Below, in pieces: positions 1,276 to 19,860 of a stretch of DNA of 64,000 bases. Numbering within the stretch: the first letter of the stretch is position 1; every line of letters begins with the position of its first letter. The DNA comes from a bacterium (lineage in GTDB: Bacteria > Actinomycetota > Acidimicrobiia > Acidimicrobiales > Bin134). The notes under the pieces were generated by a model. The model worked only from the letters and a program-made list of their open reading frames with translations, did no database searches and was not told the origin of the DNA. The DNA lies in assembly GCA_026709025.1 (NCBI GenBank), contig JAPOTT010000010.1, forward strand, positions 20,658 through 84,657, written 5' to 3'. Position numbers and translations under genes: made by a program.

Positions 1276-1351
1276 TGGTACCCCCCCTGGGATTCGAACC
1301 CAGAACCTGCGGATTAAGAGTCCGTTGCTCTGCCAGTTGAGCTAGAGGGGC
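1276..1351 (-). tRNA. tRNA-Lys (anticodon CTT)
   Basis: The reverse complement folds as a cloverleaf. Acceptor GCCCCTC pairs with GGGGGGT, the D-arm is GCTC..GAGC, the anticodon loop is CTCTTAA, the T-arm is CTGGGTTCGAATCCCAG, and CCA is encoded. Confidence 0.9.
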
Positions 1352-1372
1352 CAGTTGAACCAACAGACCTAT

Positions 1373-1451
1373 TGGGCGGACCGAGGGGACTTGAACCCCC
1401 GACCTCCGGGACCACAACCCGGCGCTCTAACCAGACTGAGCTACGGCCCGC
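1373..1451 (-). tRNA. tRNA-His (anticodon GTG) with encoded G-1
   Basis: The reverse complement is GCGGGCCGTAGCTCAG...CCGGGTTGTGGTCCCGG...GGGGGTTCAAGTCCCCTCGGTCCGCCCA. The extra 5' G pairs with C73, which is the His identity element. The anticodon loop is TTGTGGT and CCA is encoded. Confidence 0.9.
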
Positions 1452-1567: not shown

Positions 1568-1981
1568 GTGGAACAGTCGGTGTATGAGCAGGTTGGGGGT
1601 CAGGCTTTCTTTGATGAGTTGGTAAGCCGCTTCTACGACGGAGTAGCCAACGATCCCCTGCTTCGGTCGATGTATCCAGCAGATCTAGGCCCGTCACGTA
1701 AGCATCTAGCGCAGTTTTTAGCTCAGTATTGGGGAGGCCCGCCCAACTACAGTGCGCTACGAGGGCACCCCCGGTTGCGGATGCGTCATGGGCCGTTTGT
1801 GATTGGAGTAGCCGAAAGAGATGCCTGGATGTACCACATGGGTGAGGCATTAGCCGCTACAGAGATGCCTACAGATGTGCGAACCTCCATGCTGGAGTAT
1901 TTTGAGTCTGCTGCCACCCACCTCATCAACAAGCGCCATCCCGAACCACCAGAAGGCACTCGTCGTTTGCCGCTTCGATAG
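1568..1981 (+). CDS. glbO: group II truncated haemoglobin
   Basis: 'YEQVGGQAFFDELVSRFY...FLAQYWGGPPNYSALRGHPRLRMRHGPFVIGVAERDAWMYHM' closely parallels mycobacterial GlbO (QYWGGP..RGHPRLRMRH motif). The start codon is GTG. Confidence 0.88.
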   Translation: MEQSVYEQVGGQAFFDELVSRFYDGVANDPLLRSMYPADLGPSRKHLAQFLAQYWGGPPNYSALRGHPRLRMRHGPFVIGVAERDAWMYHMGEALAATEMPTDVRTSMLEYFESAATHLINKRHPEPPEGTRRLPLR

Positions 1982-2003: not shown

Positions 2004-2585
2004 CTAGATAGTCTTTGTGCCGTCCACCCCGAGGGCTATGGCCAGCACCACAGCTGCGCCTCCTAGCAATCTAGCCAATACGGCAAGCAAAGGAGTTGGC
2101 ACCGAGCGCAGCCACAGCAAAGTTGCGGTGGCACCGGCTGCCAGAGCCACACCCGCCAGGGTACGCCACACTCCGTCGTGGGCGGCTGTGGCTAACACCG
2201 TTGCCACCAACTGTGGTGCCAACAACCCGGTTAGGGCGATGAGGGCAACCTGAATCCCGGCGCGAGGTTCGTCTGTAACTGCTTTGGCGGGCCAGAGCAT
2301 CCAGCGCAGGCCCGCTACAGCTACGGGCAACGCTGTGGCTAGGCGCCAGGTTCCAGTGGTTACCGACAAGCCTTCCAATATAGGATCGGCCAGCGCTGCG
2401 ATAAGCCACAACATAGCCACACCTATAGTGGTAGCCAGCACAACCCGAGGTCGCCAGTGATCCCAATTAGATGGCCGCCATGTGAGGGATAGGGCTATTG
2501 CCGCAGGGTTAGCTGCCACCAACACCAGTGCCATTGTTGGCCCTAAGCCGTTCATGTACATGCTCTCATGGTTTGTTGCCTCCAA
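2004..2585 (-). CDS. polytopic integral membrane protein, possibly MarC/UPF0056-like
   Basis: 193-aa ORF that is almost entirely hydrophobic (about 6 TM segments). 'VLVAANPAAIALSL' recalls the N-terminal NP motif of MarC. It overlaps the upstream gene by 20 nt. Confidence 0.4.
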   Translation of the reverse strand: MEATNHESMYMNGLGPTMALVLVAANPAAIALSLTWRPSNWDHWRPRVVLATTIGVAMLWLIAALADPILEGLSVTTGTWRLATALPVAVAGLRWMLWPAKAVTDEPRAGIQVALIALTGLLAPQLVATVLATAAHDGVWRTLAGVALAAGATATLLWLRSVPTPLLAVLARLLGGAAVVLAIALGVDGTKTI

Positions 2586-3882
2586 GGTTGAATTCGAAGT
2601 CGGCCATCAACAGCGCAGAGACGGCGTGCTGTTGATCGTCCACTCTGGTTTGTTGATGGTAGTACCACGCGCCATCTGAAGCTTGGGCTTCAATGAGCCG
2701 CGCAGCACCGCATCGCAAGCGCTGCGTGATAGCGCTCTGGTGCTCACCGAGACGGGGTTCATTGGCCCACAACCATTCCAGCGCGCCTAAGCCCTCCAAA
2801 ATTGTGCCGTAGCCTCCACCCCGAGGCATGGGCAGGTGGGTAGCTTTAGCCAACCCTTCTCGTTGTGAATCCCAGCGGATCATCTGACTGAACCTGCCTG
2901 CCAAACTCTGGGCATAATCCAGATGGTGCTGCGCCAGCCCCCATTCCACCATCTCCGCTAAGCCATAAGCTGCCCACTGATCGGGCCAGGGTGGGGGCCA
3001 CAGTTCCTCTAGGCTGTCGCGTTGGGTGGCCAGGTAGTCCATAATGGCCCAAGTGGGTTCGTCCCAGCCTTCTTCTGGAAAAGCCTCATGCAACAGAGCT
3101 AGCCCCCAAGCTGCCTCACCGGTAGCAAAGCGGGATCTGATTTCTGGCACCACAGCATTGGTGTGGGGATCCCAGAAGTTAGCCATGCCGCCGTCGGGCA
3201 ATTGTTGGCCCACCAAAAACCGCCCTAATGCTCGCATCTCGGGGTCGTAAGCGGTGTCTTTGGTTGCGATGCGACGATGAGCCAGCGACACCAAAGTAAG
3301 CGCCGCTGTGCCGGTTTTGGCTGGGCCAGAGGGCGAAAGCGCGGGTGCGAGGCCGCCGTTGTAGGTGGGAAGCCCGCGCTCTAGGAGGTAGGTAATGCCT
3401 TTGTCGGCTGCCTGTAGCACCTCAGGTTGGCTGTGACGTTGGCTGTTACGTTGACTGTTGCGTTGGCCGTTGGGTGGTTGGGTTTGCTGAGCGCTGTGAG
3501 CAATCGCAAGCTGATATAGCGCCATTGTGGCACCAGCGTGGCGCACCAAGTTGTAGCCCGGGCGTGGCCCACCGATGCGCTGATCGTAGTGATACAGGTA
3601 CCTGCCAGCTGCACTTTGGTTGTTGACGATCCAGTTGCTGGCCGCTTCAATCCCAGCCTGCCCATCTCCCGGAGAGTATTCGGGGCAAACCTCCGGCGCA
3701 GCTAGGGTTACCCGCAGCACTCCCACAACAACCACCCACACCACTAACCAACCAACCAGCCGCCTGTTGGCTGAAGATTTGAACACTCTTAAACCCGCGC
3801 CCGCGCCAACCCAAGTTTTTGTTGCCCAAGCCACGATTTTTGCCGCTGGCTTGGGAGCAACCTCTTTCTGCCCAGAGTTCAT
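2566..3882 (-). CDS. N-terminally anchored extracytoplasmic protein with alpha/alpha-toroid-like repeats (prenyltransferase/terpene-cyclase-like or six-hairpin fold); function unknown
   Basis: 438-aa ORF with a TM segment 'LVGWLVVWVVVVGVL'. Aromatic/Gly-rich repeat motifs follow (GRYLYHYD, DGGMANFWDP, DGAWYYHQ, TGEAAWGLALL). It contains the QRNSQRNSQRHSQ repeat. Confidence 0.35.
   Translation of the reverse strand: MNSGQKEVAPKPAAKIVAWATKTWVGAGAGLRVFKSSANRRLVGWLVVWVVVVGVLRVTLAAPEVCPEYSPGDGQAGIEAASNWIVNNQSAAGRYLYHYDQRIGGPRPGYNLVRHAGATMALYQLAIAHSAQQTQPPNGQRNSQRNSQRHSQPEVLQAADKGITYLLERGLPTYNGGLAPALSPSGPAKTGTAALTLVSLAHRRIATKDTAYDPEMRALGRFLVGQQLPDGGMANFWDPHTNAVVPEIRSRFATGEAAWGLALLHEAFPEEGWDEPTWAIMDYLATQRDSLEELWPPPWPDQWAAYGLAEMVEWGLAQHHLDYAQSLAGRFSQMIRWDSQREGLAKATHLPMPRGGGYGTILEGLGALEWLWANEPRLGEHQSAITQRLRCGAARLIEAQASDGAWYYHQQTRVDDQQHAVSALLMADFEFNLGGNKP
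3426..3473. repeat. imperfect 12-nt tandem repeat x4 (in-frame, encodes QRNSQRNSQRHSQ on the minus strand)
   Basis: gttggctgtgac / gttggctgttac / gttgactgttgc / gttggccgttgg read directly. Confidence 0.85.
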
Positions 3883-3892
3883 GGCGTGAAGC

Positions 3893-5050
3893 TCACCTGA
3901 AGCGCCAGAAGCGGGAGAACAAGAAGGTGGCAGGCAGGCGGCTGAACACGAAGCTGCGAGCTGCGGAGCCTTCTAGTTGGGTGTTGTTGCGGTCTGTTAC
4001 GCACCATGATGATCCTGGCACAACGGTGATGTTGAAACGGGCTGTCCAGTCCAACCATTTCACCCAGCGATGAGGGGTGATGAGGTTGCGGTCTCGGGTA
4101 GATGGGGTGACCCAGATTACAAGAGCACCAATGGCGATAGCACTAAACACCTCCACTTGAGCACTTATCTCGATACCCAGATGGAAGGCTACTGCCACCC
4201 ATACAGCAAACAAGCGAGTGCGGCGAAACCATAGCCCGCAGGCAATGAACAGCTCCGTGGCGACAGCCATCGGTGAGAGTACCCAGTGGAAGGTTCGTGA
4301 GGTGAGCACCTCCAAGATAGGGTTGCCCAGAGTTTCCCCTAGCACGCTCATAGCATCGTCTTGGTAACGCAGGGTTCGATCATGCAGAACTCGCCCGCTT
4401 ACCCAGTCGGGGTCGATCAGCTTGGAAAAACCTGAGGCAAAGGAGATGGCTGCTGCCTCAAAGCGAAGCAACCAGATGGGCCATACGAATCCTTGATCGT
4501 TTGGGTCTGGCCTCACAGCGCCCAGATCCACAGCGCCTAGCCCCACAGCGCCCAGACCCACAGCGCCTAGCCCCAAAGCGCCCTGGTGTAGACGATCTGC
4601 GCTCCGTTGGTTGTGGCGACGGCGCAAGCGTAGCGCATCCACAGAAAGCACCTTGGCGTTGTTGCTGAGTGCTACGCCAGCCAACAAGATAATTAAGAAG
4701 GCTCTGTTATGCCGGAAGTGGGTTTCAGACAAAAAGAAGTTGTAAGCCACCACTGTTAGCGTTACCCAAGTTGCAGGCCGAGCCCACAGCCCCACAGTCA
4801 TCAAAACCGCGCAAGCCACTCCCACCCATAAAATCGCCACATACAACCCGGCGGGCACGTTGGGCACCCACGGCCACCACTTTTGTTGGAAAACGTCCAG
4901 ATAGGTGGTTCCAGCTAGGGCATCTTGGAGGAAAGGGCGCAGGTGCCAGATAGCCGCCGGGCCCAACACGATGCGTAAAATTGCCATAGAACGCAAGCTG
5001 GCTGGCTGATCAAAGATCGTATCTAGCCACTTCGCAGGGGTGGCCAGCAC
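3893..5050 (-). CDS. HTTM domain (vitamin K-dependent gamma-carboxylase-like) integral membrane protein
   Basis: 385 aa. The N-terminal 'ASLRSMAILRIVLGPAAIWHLRPFL' is the typical HTTM opening helix, and multiple TM segments follow. The GTG start overlaps the upstream TAG stop by 1 nt (TAGTG). Confidence 0.7.
   Translation of the reverse strand: MLATPAKWLDTIFDQPASLRSMAILRIVLGPAAIWHLRPFLQDALAGTTYLDVFQQKWWPWVPNVPAGLYVAILWVGVACAVLMTVGLWARPATWVTLTVVAYNFFLSETHFRHNRAFLIILLAGVALSNNAKVLSVDALRLRRRHNQRSADRLHQGALGLGAVGLGAVGLGAVDLGAVRPDPNDQGFVWPIWLLRFEAAAISFASGFSKLIDPDWVSGRVLHDRTLRYQDDAMSVLGETLGNPILEVLTSRTFHWVLSPMAVATELFIACGLWFRRTRLFAVWVAVAFHLGIEISAQVEVFSAIAIGALVIWVTPSTRDRNLITPHRWVKWLDWTARFNITVVPGSSWCVTDRNNTQLEGSAARSFVFSRLPATFLFSRFWRFR
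4514..4588. repeat. imperfect 15-nt tandem repeat x5 (in-frame, encodes GALGLGAVGLGAVGLGAVDLGAV on the minus strand)
   Basis: cacagcgcccagatc / cacagcgcctagccc / cacagcgcccagacc / cacagcgcctagccc / caaagcgccctggtg read directly. Confidence 0.85.
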
Positions 5051-5601
5051 TAGTTGGCCCTGCTTTGGGTGTGAGGTGGATCAGCAGATGGCAGGGTTCG
5101 GGGGTTGCTGCGCAGTACCTTTATGTATGGGCCGCGGGCGTTGCGGTAGTAGGTGACGGTGGCTTCAAGGTAGCGGGTTCGGGTGTCACCGGGGGTGTTG
5201 TCGGCTATCCAATTTAGGGCGTTTTCTAGGTAGTCCAGCACCGCATCTACTCCTGAGAAGGCATGGCGCTGGTGCCACGGGCCTTGTAATGCACGCCAGC
5301 CCACCAAGTCATCCCAGCGGTAGCCCTCCCAATGTCCGTTTGGCGCCTCAATTCGCTGTCCGTTGTTTAGCACCCGCTCTAGGGTGAGCGCGTAGGTGCT
5401 GGATTCGTTGAAGGGTTGAAACGCAAAGTAGTTGTGCGGGTCTCGGTAGCCGTTGATCACCAGCGCAACTTGGGTAATCACCACAACGCTAGCTAGCAGC
5501 CTCACCCCCCTGCGCCGCCATGCAGGGCGGCGACGCACCTCCAGCGGGGTGTTGGTGAGGTTGGATTCTTGTGGGCTAGCTGCTGTGGTGGTTGGTTTCA
5601 C
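5050..5601 (-). CDS. N-terminally anchored hypothetical protein coupled to the HTTM gene
   Basis: 183-aa ORF with an Arg-rich N-terminus, one TM segment ('LLASVVVITQVALVI') and a Trp/Tyr-rich soluble domain. It overlaps the HTTM start by 1 nt. Confidence 0.5.
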   Translation of the reverse strand: MKPTTTAASPQESNLTNTPLEVRRRPAWRRRGVRLLASVVVITQVALVINGYRDPHNYFAFQPFNESSTYALTLERVLNNGQRIEAPNGHWEGYRWDDLVGWRALQGPWHQRHAFSGVDAVLDYLENALNWIADNTPGDTRTRYLEATVTYYRNARGPYIKVLRSNPRTLPSADPPHTQSRAN

Positions 5602-5640
5602 CGAACATGCACACAGAGATCCAGCACATCCACACAGGCA

Positions 5641-6354
5641 TTAGCTGTTGTTTTCGAGTCTGCGCCTGTAGGACTCCAGGTTGGGGGGTAGGCGGTCGCG
5701 CTTTAGCTCTGAGAAGTTGTCGTAAGCGGTGAGCCAGCGCACATGCTGCCATAACTCCACAGCCTCTTTGGTGCTAGCAGGTGGGTTGCTGATTACCGGG
5801 CCAAACAAGGCTGGCCTTGTTTGGCTAGCTGCGCTATCTGAGGAGGGGCCATCGGCTGTGCTGGCTGCGTCGTTTGCGCCATCTGTGGGGTTGGCTATAT
5901 CTAGGCGAATGGTGGGCACCCCAAAGCTACGGGTTTCGTCGCACAACACAGTGTGTTCGGATTTGAGTGCTTCCCAGGTTGCAGGGTTTGCCAACGCATC
6001 GTCCACCAAGCTGCTAGAAAAACCAGCATCGGTAGCTGCAGCCTTGAGGGTGTTGATGTCATTCACAGATTCCACTAGGTCAAACGCCCGATGTCCGACA
6101 GCCTCATAGTAGGCACCTATCCCGGCATTGCCACCCACGTTGCGTGCTTCGATAGCAGTGCGAAGCGAATGCACTCCAGCACCCTTGCTTGGATCAAACT
6201 CAGATAGGGGTTTATCCCAGTTGACGATGGCCAACGAGAACAGTCCCCAAGTGGTGTGTACCTCTCCAGCGGCTTCTATCTGACGAACCCAACGGGATGT
6301 CTGCCAGCACCATGGTCAAAGAGGATCAAAGTAGAAGGTGATAGGTTCGCCCAT
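5641..6354 (-). CDS. DsbA-like thiol oxidoreductase of the Rv2466c (CPWC) type, interrupted by an in-frame TGA at the first redox Cys position (candidate selenoprotein, UPWC)
   Basis: ATG at 6354 gives [29 protein letters not shown]..., continuous in frame with the track ORF 5641..6234. Compare mycobacterial Rv2466c '[20 protein letters not shown]' and its C-terminal 'FFGPV...ELKRTR' with 'LFGPV...ELKRDR' here. Confidence 0.6.
6280..6307 (-). promoter_or_regulatory. candidate bacterial SECIS-like hairpin (hand-folded)
   Basis: The mRNA from +9 to +36 after UGA is CUGGCAGACAUCCCGUUGGGUUCGUCAG. CUGGC pairs with GUCAG, GAC with GUU, and CC with GG. The apical loop is CGUU, placing G-U about 23-24 nt after UGA. 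No folding program was used. Confidence 0.3.
6316..6318 (-). other. in-frame TGA codon replacing the N-terminal Cys of the CxxC motif (candidate Sec codon)
   Basis: Plus-strand 'tca' at 6316-6318 lies 12 codons after the ATG at 6354, in the same frame as the downstream 197-aa ORF. Confidence 0.55.
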
Positions 6355-6494
6355 GCGGGGATTATCTTAGTGCGGATGCTCTAGTGCAAGTACCCCAAAC
6401 GAACAATTCAGGTGTGCTTACAGATGCTAAGAGCCGTGTGGAGAGTTTATTTTGTTTGTGCAACTCATGGCTACACCGGGTATGGTTGTGGCTT

Positions 6495-6731
6495 ATGTCC
6501 AGTGTCTGTCAGGTGACCGGTCGTCGCCCATCTTTTGGCAATAATGTGTCCCACTCCCATCGCAAAACCAGACGTCGGTGGAACCCCAACGTACACAAGC
6601 ATCGCTTCTGGTTGCCTTCAGAAAAGCGCTGGGTGGTGCTCAACGTGTCTACTAAGGGCCTGAAAACAATCAACAAACATGGCATTGAGAAGGTGGTTGC
6701 TCAGATGCGTCGCCGGGGAGAGAAGGTGTGA
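6495..6731 (+). CDS. rpmB: 50S ribosomal protein L28
   Basis: '[63 protein letters not shown]' is collinear with E. coli L28. The track ORF start (6384) is an upstream extension. Confidence 0.9.
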
Positions 6732-19101: not shown

Positions 19102-19860
19102 CTATTTGGATTTCGTGATGGCCTGTTTGAGGGATTGTATCTTTTCGTTGAAGATTGGTTGGTTGATCGACCAAACCTGAGGTTCTAGTTCTCGGGCTAC
19201 TGCTTCTTGGCTGTTGGTTACATCGGCCATGTCTGTAATGGTTTGTTTCATGGCCATCGTGAGGGTTCGCGGTGCGCGTGCAGTGCGGTTGGCCAAACGT
19301 TGGGCCTCGCTAAGCAGTGCCTCATCTTCTACGCACTTCCAAGCTAAGCCGATTTGGGCGGCCCGGTGGCCATCTAAGCGTTCTCCGAAAACCACCATAG
19401 CCATAGCGGTTTGGCGGTTGCAGATGTTGCGAAGTCGCCAAGTGTGGCCTCCTCCCGGGTGGGCTGCAATCTGTAGGAAGCGACTTTCAAACATGGCGCT
19501 GTGTCCGGCCAAGATCAGATCGCAGGCCAAGGCGAAGTTCATGCCCGCGCCAACCGCAGCCCCGTTCACCGCAGCTATGGTGGGCAGCGGGCTGTGTGCC
19601 ACCCGCAAAAACCCCGAGTAGATGGCACTGAGGCTTTCTGGGGTATTGGCAGCTAGCAGCTCGTCTAAGTTAGCTCCAGCAGAAAACGCTGGAGCAGCAC
19701 CGGTTAGTACCACTGCAGCAACGCTGGTGTCGTTTTCTAGCCGATCCCATGTTTTGTTGAGTTGCTGGTTCATCTGCAGGCTCACAGCGTTACGCACCTC
19801 AGGAGCGTTGAGGGTTACCGTAGCCACCCCGTTTTGTGTTTCGCATAGCACTAGTGTCAT
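19102..19860 (-). CDS. enoyl-CoA hydratase/isomerase (crotonase) family protein
   Basis: 'VVLTGAAPAFSAGANLDEL' and 'IAAVNGAAVGAGMNFALACD' are crotonase oxyanion-hole motifs. Confidence 0.85.
   Translation of the reverse strand: MTLVLCETQNGVATVTLNAPEVRNAVSLQMNQQLNKTWDRLENDTSVAAVVLTGAAPAFSAGANLDELLAANTPESLSAIYSGFLRVAHSPLPTIAAVNGAAVGAGMNFALACDLILAGHSAMFESRFLQIAAHPGGGHTWRLRNICNRQTAMAMVVFGERLDGHRAAQIGLAWKCVEDEALLSEAQRLANRTARAPRTLTMAMKQTITDMADVTNSQEAVARELEPQVWSINQPIFNEKIQSLKQAITKSK

What the first reader, a model, noticed from the sequence alone, without database searches (positions are those of the whole stretch)
2004..6354. Five-gene minus-strand string linking a CPWC redox protein to an HTTM (vitamin-K-carboxylase-like) membrane protein and a toroid-repeat exoprotein
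Read on the minus strand, the order is as follows:
- DsbA-like UPWC/CPWC protein (6354-5641)
- 39-nt gap
- anchored 183-aa protein (5601-5050)
- HTTM protein, start overlapping the previous stop by 1 nt (TAGTG)
- 10-nt gap
- 438-aa anchored protein with aromatic/Gly repeat motifs
- 20-nt overlap
- 6-TM protein

The spacing implies co-translation. HTTM is the membrane domain shared with eukaryotic gamma-glutamyl carboxylase and with B. subtilis SdpB, where a small partner (SdpA) precedes it and a secreted substrate follows. The same small-protein, HTTM, exported-protein order is seen here, with an added thiol/selenol oxidoreductase. No bacterial HTTM system of this composition is functionally described to my knowledge.
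Basis: partly seen in the sequence, partly recalled or inferred. Interest (0 to 1): 0.55.

Follow-up and report, generated by a model that had tools for sequence, protein, structure and literature searches.

The report
Split HTTM enzyme beside toroid–MarC pair
The five-gene string is real, but it is built from three separable units: a selenocysteine-containing thiol reductase found in one clade only, a conserved pair of a small membrane protein and a vitamin-K-carboxylase-like enzyme, and a conserved pair of an anchored barrel-shaped protein and a MarC-type membrane protein; what the last four do is unknown.

Summary
In detail: five minus-strand genes at the stated coordinates with the stated spacing.

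Comparison with about 90 related loci splits the string into three units.

1. **Rv2466c-like reductase.** Its first active-site Cys is a conserved in-frame TGA, probably selenocysteine (U-P-W-C). It sits next to the cluster only in the sponge-associated Poriferisocius clade, and it stays there when the HTTM gene is deleted.
2. **Small single-pass protein plus HTTM protein.** They were adjacent wherever both were sampled. The HTTM protein keeps the equivalents of human carboxylase Lys218, Asn159 and Trp223. This looks like a two-gene version of the carboxylase architecture.
3. **Anchored (α/α)6 toroid plus divergent MarC-family 6-TM protein.** They were adjacent in every locus with enough flank, and fused into one protein in two loci.

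Units 2 and 3 lie together in 49 of 75 assessable toroid loci, but each also occurs alone. The toroid is therefore unlikely to be an obligate SdpC-like substrate.

The small-protein and toroid families have no Pfam or NCBIfam model. I rate this a new variant of a known kind (HTTM plus single-pass partner). Its chemistry is untested.

The parts
5641..6354 (-). Rv2466c-like, DsbA-fold thiol reductase gene (237 codons). Its active site reads U-P-W-C if the TGA is decoded as selenocysteine. No signal peptide or TM segment.
   Evidence: PF22234 78.8 bits (cut-off 27) and PF01323 34 bits. Translation. Orthologues sit in the same position in 35 related loci.
6316..6318 (-). In-frame TGA at the position of the first Cys of the CPWC motif; a candidate selenocysteine codon.
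   Evidence: The codon is TGA in the window and in 34 of 35 orthologous loci, and TGC (Cys) in L003. The 12 codons upstream keep their amino acids while their third positions vary. TGA is an ordinary stop elsewhere in the window (15 of 37 long ORFs).
6280..6307 (-). SECIS-like hairpin starting 11 nt after the TGA, with G/U in the apical loop. Support is weak.
   Evidence: ViennaRNA folds. Third codon positions +7 to +12 are invariant or nearly so in 34 distinct orthologues. However, the fold is no more stable than shuffled sequence (z +0.55), and no Rfam model matches.
5050..5601 (-). 183-aa single-pass membrane protein: basic N-terminus, a TM helix at residues 27-49, then an alpha/beta domain of about 130 aa. 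The partner of the HTTM protein, from a family with no curated model.
   Evidence: No Pfam or NCBIfam hit. AF2 pLDDT 83.4. No PDB fold match. Invariant juxtamembrane motif NGYRDPHxFFAFQPFNESST. 208 cluster representatives among 1.84 billion proteins. Directly upstream of an HTTM gene in every locus examined.
3893..5050 (-). 385-aa HTTM-domain membrane protein (fold of the vitamin-K-dependent carboxylase membrane domain) with a short C-terminal tail.
   Evidence: PF05090 68.9 bits. The family profile hits human GGCX at E 2e-7. Invariant K210, N115 and W216 align with GGCX K218, N159 and W223, and invariant R116 aligns with H160 (residue roles from PMC12647623).
2566..3882 (-). 438-aa protein: an N-terminal hydrophobic segment (anchor or signal peptide) followed by an (alpha/alpha)6 toroid. 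From a family with no curated model.
   Evidence: AF2 pLDDT 88.7, pTM 0.85. Best PDB matches are AGE/YihS/cellobiose 2-epimerase, GH76 and MmpH, at E about 1e-5 and TM about 0.5 only. No significant Pfam or PDB sequence hit. 62 invariant columns, including C66, C391, R114-H115, D301-Q302-W303 and R413/D415/Q417-Q418-H419. 440 loci in GTDB species genomes.
2004..2585 (-). 6-TM membrane protein, a divergent MarC-family (UPF0056) member. The probable true start is at 2555.
   Evidence: The window protein gives no Pfam hit on its own, but 9 of 25 aligned family members hit PF01914 MarC, best E 9.5e-12. It lies directly downstream of the toroid gene in all loci with enough flank. It is fused to the toroid in L085 and L089.

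Best explanation
The string is a composite of three units.

**Unit A (5641-6354).** A cytoplasmic Rv2466c-like thiol reductase. It is probably a selenoprotein (U-P-W-C). It joined this neighbourhood only in the Poriferisocius-type sponge-symbiont clade.

**Unit B (3893-5601).** A two-gene 'split carboxylase': an HTTM membrane protein plus a single-pass partner.
- The HTTM protein keeps the lysine that, in human GGCX, deprotonates vitamin K hydroquinone.
- The partner's conserved juxtamembrane motif and outward-facing domain probably cap the HTTM active site. They would play the role of the luminal domain that is fused in GGCX and MloH.
- I infer that this pair uses menaquinol and O2 at the outer face of the membrane to generate a strong base, and that the base modifies a carboxylate-bearing substrate. 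An invariant Arg replaces the substrate-binding His160.

**Unit C (2004-3882).** An outward-facing (alpha/alpha)6-toroid enzyme that works physically with a MarC-type 6-TM protein. The two are fused in some genomes.

**Coupling.** In many Acidimicrobiia, B and C are translationally coupled into one four-gene operon. They therefore probably act on the same envelope or membrane substrate or pathway. C can also work without B, and B without C.

**Shown versus inferred.** Shown: gene identities, modularity, residue conservation, the fusions. Inferred: topology, the physical B complex, quinol chemistry, a shared substrate.
For: **Modularity**
- Of 75 toroid loci with at least 1.7 kb of upstream flank, 49 carry small+HTTM directly upstream. 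Of those 49, 32 also carry the Rv2466c-like gene.
- 23 carry neither gene, 2 keep only the Rv2466c-like gene, and 1 has an HTTM remnant.
- The 6-TM gene follows the toroid gene throughout.
- Toroid and MarC-like parts form one ORF in L085 (647 aa) and L089 (590 aa).

**Small+HTTM pairing**
- The pair is adjacent, usually with a 4-nt overlap, in L001, L002, L083-L086 and L088-L091. Several of these lack a toroid.

**Catalytic residues**
- Family-invariant K210, N115 and W216 align with GGCX K218, N159 and W223.

**Precedent for a split architecture**
- A DUF5819 single-pass protein plus an HTTM protein is predicted to rebuild the whole GGCX shape. MloH is the fused bacterial form (bioRxiv 10.64898/2026.08.19.745780).

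**Coupling of B and C**
- The start of the HTTM gene overlaps the preceding stop by 1 nt, and the next gap is 10 nt.
- The same order recurs in both HTTM subgroups and down to about 45% identity.

**Outward orientation**
- Basic residues precede each single TM helix.
- The toroid has two invariant cysteines.
Against: - No biochemical or expression data exist for any member.
- No complex prediction could be run, so the B complex and any B-C contact are inferred.
- The small protein shows no sequence or fold similarity to DUF5819, SdpA or the GGCX luminal domain.
- GGCX H160 is Arg here. F299 and Y395 could not be aligned.
- The independence of B and C shows that the link is facultative and could be partly inherited synteny.
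- The toroid's best structural matches are weak (TM about 0.5), so its chemistry is open.
- The 80 loci analysed are the most similar of 440, so they are not an unbiased sample.
Confidence: 0.55

Rival explanations
1. This is one five-gene SdpABC-like maturation system. The small protein and HTTM process or export the downstream toroid protein as their substrate, and the selenol/thiol oxidoreductase acts as their redox partner, for example by recycling an oxidised quinone.
For: - The gene order (small, HTTM, exported protein) and the tight spacing fit.
- All five genes are kept in 32 genomes.
- The toroid's juxtamembrane motif A-P-E-V-C-P is strictly kept in HTTM-linked loci and is relaxed in HTTM-less ones.
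- DsbA-fold CxxC enzymes can plausibly reduce quinone-type compounds (inference).
Against: - The toroid+6-TM pair exists without HTTM in 23 of 75 loci and in Chloroflexota.
- HTTM+small exists without the toroid in L083, L084 and L088.
- The Rv2466c-like gene is linked in one clade only and stays when HTTM is deleted (L012, L052).
- SdpB scores 26.4 bits against a cut-off of 178.4, and there are no SdpA or SdpC hits.
- The reductase lacks an export signal, while the HTTM active site faces outward by homology with GGCX.
Confidence: 0.15
2. The adjacency has no shared function. Two or three independent units simply sit side by side and are inherited together in related Acidimicrobiia.
For: - Each unit occurs alone in some genomes.
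- The contexts around lone toroid+6-TM pairs vary: sigma factor and epimerase, GGDEF-EAL, CoA-transferase and SGL.
- Most five-gene loci come from one closely related clade.
Against: - The order and the near-zero spacing persist between lineages whose proteins are only 43-50% identical and in both HTTM subgroups.
- HTTM and toroid genes overlap or abut (for example L090, L091 and L089, with 4-nt overlaps), which indicates co-transcription.
- The link recurs with both the separate and the fused forms of toroid-MarC.
Confidence: 0.2
3. The small+HTTM pair is a quinone-linked thiol oxidase, functionally like DsbB or VKOR, that forms the disulfide between the two invariant cysteines of the exported toroid protein.
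For: - C66 and C391 are invariant in the toroid family.
- Precomputed Pfam hits place many of these HTTM proteins also under DoxX, PF07681.
- Lineages without HTTM could use general disulfide machinery (inference).
Against: - The HTTM protein has no conserved cysteine pair among its invariant columns.
- The residues that are conserved are those of GGCX's quinol-activating and carboxylate-binding site.
- The cysteines remain invariant in HTTM-less lineages.
Confidence: 0.07

Closest known systems
Bacillus subtilis SdpA-SdpB (with SdpC)
   Same: A small partner gene lies immediately upstream of an HTTM-domain membrane protein, followed by a gene for an exported protein.
   Different: The SdpB model scores far below its cut-off (26.4 against 178.4 bits). 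There is no SdpA or SdpC similarity. The downstream protein is a 438-aa toroid that also exists without HTTM. No immunity or regulator genes were seen.
DUF5819 single-pass protein + HTTM(-DCC1-like) pairs (bioRxiv 10.64898/2026.08.19.745780)
   Same: The partner has an N-terminal TM helix followed by a domain of about 130-160 aa. The genes are adjacent. That paper predicts that the pair rebuilds the overall GGCX shape.
   Different: The 183-aa family does not match DUF5819 in Pfam, even among its distant members. The HTTM C-terminal tail gives only one marginal DCC1-like hit (E 0.079) and has no CxxC. No complex model could be made here.
[quoted passage not shown]
   Same: It has the HTTM fold. 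Equivalents of Lys218, Asn159 and Trp223 are invariant.
   Different: It is half the size and has no fused luminal domain or propeptide-binding region. His160 is Arg. The substrate is unknown. MloH sits in a polyketide-peptide biosynthetic cluster, and this one does not.
Mycobacterium tuberculosis Rv2466c (Mrx-2) and the DsbA-like UxxC selenoprotein family (Zhang et al. 2005, PMC1088965)
   Same: It has a DsbA-fold reductase with a C/U-P-W-C motif. UxxC DsbA-like selenoproteins are already described.
   Different: Here it is Sec-containing and sits beside an HTTM operon in one clade. Mycothiol dependence is unknown in this organism.
MarC family (PF01914 / UPF0056)
   Same: It is a 6-TM protein of about 180-200 aa, and relatives in the same gene position match the MarC model.
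   Different: It is very divergent: the window protein itself does not match. It is always paired with, or fused to, an (alpha/alpha)6 toroid. To my knowledge (recalled, not searched exhaustively) that pairing is not a described feature of MarC proteins.

Membership tests
HTTM domain (PF05090) | Score above Pfam's gathering threshold | tested here: met
   68.9 bits against 27.7. All 120 listed homologues carry PF05090.
Vitamin-K-dependent carboxylase (GGCX/MloH type) | Catalytic lysine equivalent to GGCX Lys218 | tested here: met
   Invariant K210 in 'SGFSKLIDPDW' aligns with K218 in 'AGVKKLDADW'.
Vitamin-K-dependent carboxylase (GGCX/MloH type) | Substrate and CO2 site residues Asn159, His160, Trp223, Phe299, Tyr395 (PMC12647623) | tested here: inconclusive
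   N115 = N159 and W216 = W223 are invariant. H160 is an invariant Arg (R116). F299 and Y395 lie outside the region that aligned.
Vitamin-K-dependent carboxylase (GGCX/MloH type) | Large luminal/extracytoplasmic domain fused C-terminal to the HTTM domain | tested here: not met
   The protein is 385 aa and ends about 70 residues after the last TM helix. A separate single-pass protein may supply this domain (inference).
Vitamin-K-dependent carboxylase (GGCX/MloH type) | Quinol- and O2-dependent epoxidase/carboxylase activity | not testable with these tools
   This needs biochemistry.
SdpAB(C) system | HTTM protein belongs to the SdpB subfamily (TIGR04033) | tested here: not met
   26.4 bits against a cut-off of 178.4.
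SdpAB(C) system | Partner belongs to the SdpA family | tested here: not met
   The 183-aa protein, 34 family members and 10 distant members gave no hit in NCBIfam or Pfam.
SdpAB(C) system | Downstream SdpC-type toxin precursor | tested here: not met
   The downstream product is a 438-aa (alpha/alpha)6 toroid with no SdpC hit.
SdpAB(C) system | Small partner gene directly upstream of the HTTM gene | tested here: met
   True in the window and in every locus examined.
DUF5819 + HTTM pairs | Partner matches Pfam DUF5819 | tested here: not met
   No hit, even at E up to 10.
DUF5819 + HTTM pairs | Partner architecture: an N-terminal TM helix followed by a globular domain | tested here: met
   The AF2 model has a helix at 27-49 followed by a four-strand, one-helix domain.
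DUF5819 + HTTM pairs | Confident predicted complex of the partner with HTTM | not tested
Rv2466c-like (PF22234) | Score above the gathering threshold, and a CPWC active site | tested here: met
   78.8 bits against 27, scored with Cys substituted at the TGA. The motif is U/C-P-W-C.
Bacterial UxxC DsbA-like selenoproteins | In-frame UGA aligned with Cys in homologues, with a conserved coding frame on both sides | tested here: met
   The codon is TGA in the window and in 34 of 35 orthologous loci, and TGC in L003. The upstream 12 codons are conserved as protein.
Bacterial UxxC DsbA-like selenoproteins | SECIS hairpin just downstream of the UGA | tested here: inconclusive
   A hairpin 11 nt downstream has G/U in its loop, and synonymous sites are constrained. 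Its stability is not above that of shuffles.
Bacterial UxxC DsbA-like selenoproteins | selA/selB/selD genes and tRNA-Sec in the genome | not testable with these tools
   Only 64 kb is available. There is no tRNA-Sec in the window.
MarC family (PF01914) | Match to the Pfam model | tested here: inconclusive
   The window protein gave no hit. 9 of 25 aligned family members match, best E 9.5e-12.
AGE / six-hairpin (alpha/alpha)6 superfamily | (alpha/alpha)6 barrel fold | tested here: met
   Foldseek probability 1.0 and E about 1e-5 to YihS, cellobiose 2-epimerase and GH76; TM only about 0.5.
AGE / six-hairpin (alpha/alpha)6 superfamily | Sequence membership in, or the catalytic residues of, a specific family | tested here: not met
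   One of 32 members weakly hits PF07221 and three hit SQHop_cyclase_C at E of 0.006 or worse. No PDB sequence hit is better than E 0.3.

The most novel reading that the evidence does not exclude
The small+HTTM pair is a true bacterial, menaquinol-driven GGCX-type carboxylase split over two genes. Its target would be a protein or envelope component handled by the toroid-MarC unit. The most specific version names the invariant Glu of the juxtamembrane A-P-E-V-C-P motif of the toroid protein as the target. That would be the first protein-directed vitamin-K-type carboxylation system in bacteria.
Probability: 0.06. Interest if true: 0.85.

Novelty: new variant of a known kind. Interest (0 to 1): 0.5.

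Why it matters
- The function of bacterial HTTM proteins is unresolved. Outside malonomycin MloH and the genetically defined SdpAB, none has an assigned chemistry.
- This cluster offers a widespread case: hundreds of Acidimicrobiia genomes, with the toroid-MarC pair also in some Chloroflexota.
- The catalytic lysine is kept, the 'missing' luminal domain seems to be supplied by a separate partner gene, and a candidate functional partner (toroid-MarC) is attached.
- Two cultured strains carry the four-gene form: Actinospongicola halichondriae Hal317 and Salinilacustrithrix flava EGI L10123. The question is therefore testable in the laboratory.
- The analysis also defines two protein families with no Pfam or NCBIfam model, a toroid-MarC gene fusion that says something about the poorly understood MarC family, and a clade-wide Sec/Cys switch in an Rv2466c-like reductase.

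Tried and rejected
- **Small protein.** The model found no PDB fold (best E 0.035, to kinesins, which is meaningless). A profile search of 1.84 billion proteins followed by Pfam scans of distant members did not connect it to DUF5819 or SdpA.
- **HTTM C-terminal tail.** I tested it as a DCC1-like domain. Only one of eight tails gave a marginal hit, so I do not claim it.
- **Plasmids.** tblastn of the HTTM protein against plasmids found nothing.
- **RNA.** Rfam has no match for the putative SECIS. The hairpin's energy is unremarkable.
- **Conserved third neighbour.** I looked for one around lone toroid-MarC pairs. The contexts vary and give no functional hint.
- **Architecture script.** My first HMM-based script mis-scored positions because it used stop-to-stop segments. 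I discarded it in favour of the tblastn coordinates.
- **Promoter and terminator scan.** It was uninformative.
- **Rejected readings.** The in-frame TGA is not a pseudogene lesion, given its conservation and the Cys orthologue. It is not a reassigned codon either, because TGA is the commonest stop here.

Full report
**1. What is there**

Five ORFs lie head to tail on the minus strand between 2004 and 6354.
- The first is continuous from ATG 6354 to TAA 5641 only if the TGA at 6318-6316 is read through. The translation is [17 protein letters not shown]....
- Orthologues of that last gene begin at the residue aligned with M11. A start at 2555, which gives a 10-nt gap, is therefore more likely.
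- No terminator-like site lies on the minus strand inside the string. This is weak evidence.
- The organism is an Acidimicrobiia bacterium close to the sponge-associated 'Candidatus Poriferisocius'.

**2. The five products**

*Gene 1 (5641-6354).*
- It matches the Rv2466c-like model (78.8 bits against a cut-off of 27) and DSBA.

*Gene 2 (183 aa).*
- It has no Pfam or NCBIfam match.
- Its AF2 model (pLDDT 83) has a TM helix at 27-49 preceded by an Arg-rich segment and followed by a small alpha/beta domain.
- It has no PDB fold match.
- The motif NGYRDPHxFFAFQPFNESST, directly after the helix, is nearly invariant.

*Gene 3 (385 aa, HTTM).*
- It scores 68.9 bits against a cut-off of 27.7.
- A profile of 26 family members hits human gamma-glutamyl carboxylase at E 2e-7.
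- In that alignment the invariant K210, N115 and W216 fall on GGCX K218, N159 and W223, and the invariant R116 falls on H160.
- PMC12647623 describes K218 as lying next to the vitamin K hydroxyl, N159 and H160 as holding the substrate carboxylate, and W223 as required for activity.

*Gene 4 (438 aa).*
- It has no curated family. It folds confidently (pLDDT 88.7, pTM 0.85) as an N-terminal helix followed by an (alpha/alpha)6 toroid.
- The best PDB matches are YihS/AGE-type epimerases, GH76 and MmpH, at E about 1e-5 but TM only about 0.5.
- Sequence searches give nothing significant.
- Sixty-two columns are invariant among 32 members that share 45-74% identity with the window protein. They include two cysteines and several polar clusters. 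This pattern fits an enzyme rather than a passive substrate.

*Gene 5 (6-TM).*
- It has no hit on its own, but 9 of 25 family members match MarC (PF01914), best E 9.5e-12.

**3. Comparative test of the five-gene idea**

From the toroid side:
- A scan of one genome per GTDB species with the toroid profile found 440 loci. The 80 most similar were fetched.
- tblastn with the five window proteins was assessed on the 75 loci with at least 1.7 kb of upstream flank:

| Genes directly upstream of the toroid | Loci |
|---|---|
| Rv2466c-like + small + HTTM | 32 |
| Small + HTTM, no Rv2466c-like | 17 |
| None of the three | 23 |
| Rv2466c-like only, abutting the toroid gene (L012, L052) | 2 |
| Rv2466c-like + 145-aa HTTM remnant (L025) | 1 |

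- The 6-TM gene follows the toroid gene in all loci with enough downstream sequence.
- The loci without HTTM include Chloroflexota (Tepidiformaceae, Dehalococcoidia). Their flanking genes are unrelated to one another.

From the HTTM side:
- L083 and L084 have small+HTTM only.
- L090 and L091 have all four genes.
- In L085 and L089, small+HTTM is followed by a single ORF (647 and 590 aa). This ORF contains the toroid and then the MarC-like domain.
- Distant members of the small-protein family were found by a profile search of 1.84 billion representatives: 208 hits at E ≤ 0.001.
  - L086 and L088: the small gene sits directly upstream of an HTTM gene (confirmed by the A3 profile).
  - L088: no toroid gene follows; the next gene is convergent.
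  - L087: the contig is cut 69 codons into the unidentified next gene, so this locus is uninformative.

The conclusion is that there are two obligate gene pairs, small+HTTM and toroid+MarC-like. They are frequently but not always joined. A reductase gene is attached in one clade only.

**4. The TGA**
- The window and 34 of 35 orthologous loci have TGA at the first cysteine of the CPWC motif. The closest relative (L003) has TGC.
- The 12 upstream codons keep their amino acids while their third positions vary. The region upstream of the TGA is therefore translated.
- TGA ends 15 of 37 long ORFs in the window, so the codon is not reassigned.
- A hairpin begins 11 nt downstream with G/U in its loop. 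Codons +7 to +12 are invariant or nearly so at synonymous sites.
- The fold is no more stable than shuffled sequence, and no Rfam model matches.
- DsbA-like UxxC selenoproteins are a described family (PMC1088965). I therefore read this gene as a selenoprotein with good but not complete support. The Sec machinery could not be checked.

**5. How it most likely works**

By homology with GGCX, the HTTM active site lies at the outer face of the membrane. By the positive-inside rule, the domains of the small protein and of the toroid also face outward. This topology is inferred.

A recent preprint predicts that DUF5819 single-pass proteins dock on HTTM proteins and together reproduce the whole GGCX shape. 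It also notes that MloH is the fused bacterial form.

The 183-aa family has the same architecture but no detectable sequence relationship to DUF5819. I therefore call it an analogous, and possibly very distant, partner.

The retained Lys, Asn and Trp, and the Arg at the carboxylate-binding position, suggest quinol- and O2-driven base chemistry on a carboxylate-bearing substrate. This step is inferred.

The toroid-MarC unit is autonomous, and the two gene fusions argue that its two parts associate physically. Its coupling to small+HTTM suggests a shared substrate or pathway at the envelope, in the lineages that have both. The evidence for coupling is:
- overlapping or abutting genes;
- the same gene order down to about 45% identity;
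- its presence in both HTTM subgroups.

The reductase lacks any export signal and persists when HTTM is lost.

**6. Comparison with known systems and novelty**
- The arrangement resembles SdpA-SdpB and DUF5819-HTTM in having a small single-pass partner upstream of HTTM. It fails the sequence membership tests for SdpA, SdpB, SdpC and DUF5819.
- It shares the HTTM fold and key residues with GGCX and MloH, but it lacks their fused luminal domain.
- The small-protein and toroid families have no Pfam or NCBIfam model. To my knowledge (recalled, not exhaustively searched), the toroid-MarC pairing and fusion have not been described.
- I rate it a new variant of a known kind, of moderate interest (0.5). 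It does not overturn anything. It gives a widespread, partly cultured system in which to test what bacterial HTTM enzymes do.

**7. Limits**
- No multimer prediction, expression data or biochemistry was available.
- The 80 loci are the most similar of 440 and over-represent the Poriferisocius clade.
- Whole genomes could not be searched for unlinked copies.
- The toroid's chemistry remains open.

Noticed in passing
window 4510-4583 and 3426-3471 (minus-strand genes): There are two in-frame tandem repeats. A 15-nt unit repeated 4.7 times encodes (GLGAV)n in an HTTM loop. A 12-nt unit repeated 3.8 times encodes an NSQR-type insert in a low-confidence loop of the toroid. Neither insert is present in any aligned homologue.
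   Followed up: partly
L085 6125-8068 and L089 5143-6915: The toroid and the MarC-like 6-TM protein are encoded as one ORF (647 and 590 aa). This gene fusion argues that the two proteins work together physically.
   Followed up: yes
L025 6411-6848; L012 and L052 upstream of the toroid gene: Some sponge-symbiont genomes have lost the small+HTTM pair. L025 keeps a 145-aa HTTM remnant. In L012 and L052 the Rv2466c-like gene abuts the toroid gene.
   Followed up: partly
window 3682-3699 (toroid residues 62-67) and the same position in related loci: The juxtamembrane motif A-P-E-V-C-P is strictly kept in all 17 HTTM-linked loci inspected. It is relaxed in HTTM-less loci (APEQCP, AAEICP), and Glu becomes Gln or Asn in some Chloroflexota loci. 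The Cys is invariant. This could reflect phylogeny or a link to HTTM.
   Followed up: partly
L003 4646: The closest sampled relative of the window carries TGC (Cys) where the window and 34 other orthologous loci carry TGA. Synonymous changes have accumulated in the region that forms the putative SECIS in the others.
   Followed up: partly
window 19117-19203 (+): ARAGORN calls an 87-nt tRNA-Thr(CGT) here. Rfam finds no tRNA at this position even at E up to 1, so the call is probably false.
   Followed up: yes
window 1276-1450 (-), 1568-1981 (+), 6384-6731 (+): These are the flanks of the string.
- tRNA-Lys(CTT) and tRNA-His(GTG) lie at 1276-1450.
- A convergent ORF at 1568-1981 looks like a truncated haemoglobin, judged by eye and not tested.
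- A divergent ORF at 6384-6731 looks like ribosomal protein L28, also judged by eye. The matching position in L001 carries L28 and L33 genes.

The promoter of the string should therefore lie in roughly 6355-6440.
   Followed up: no
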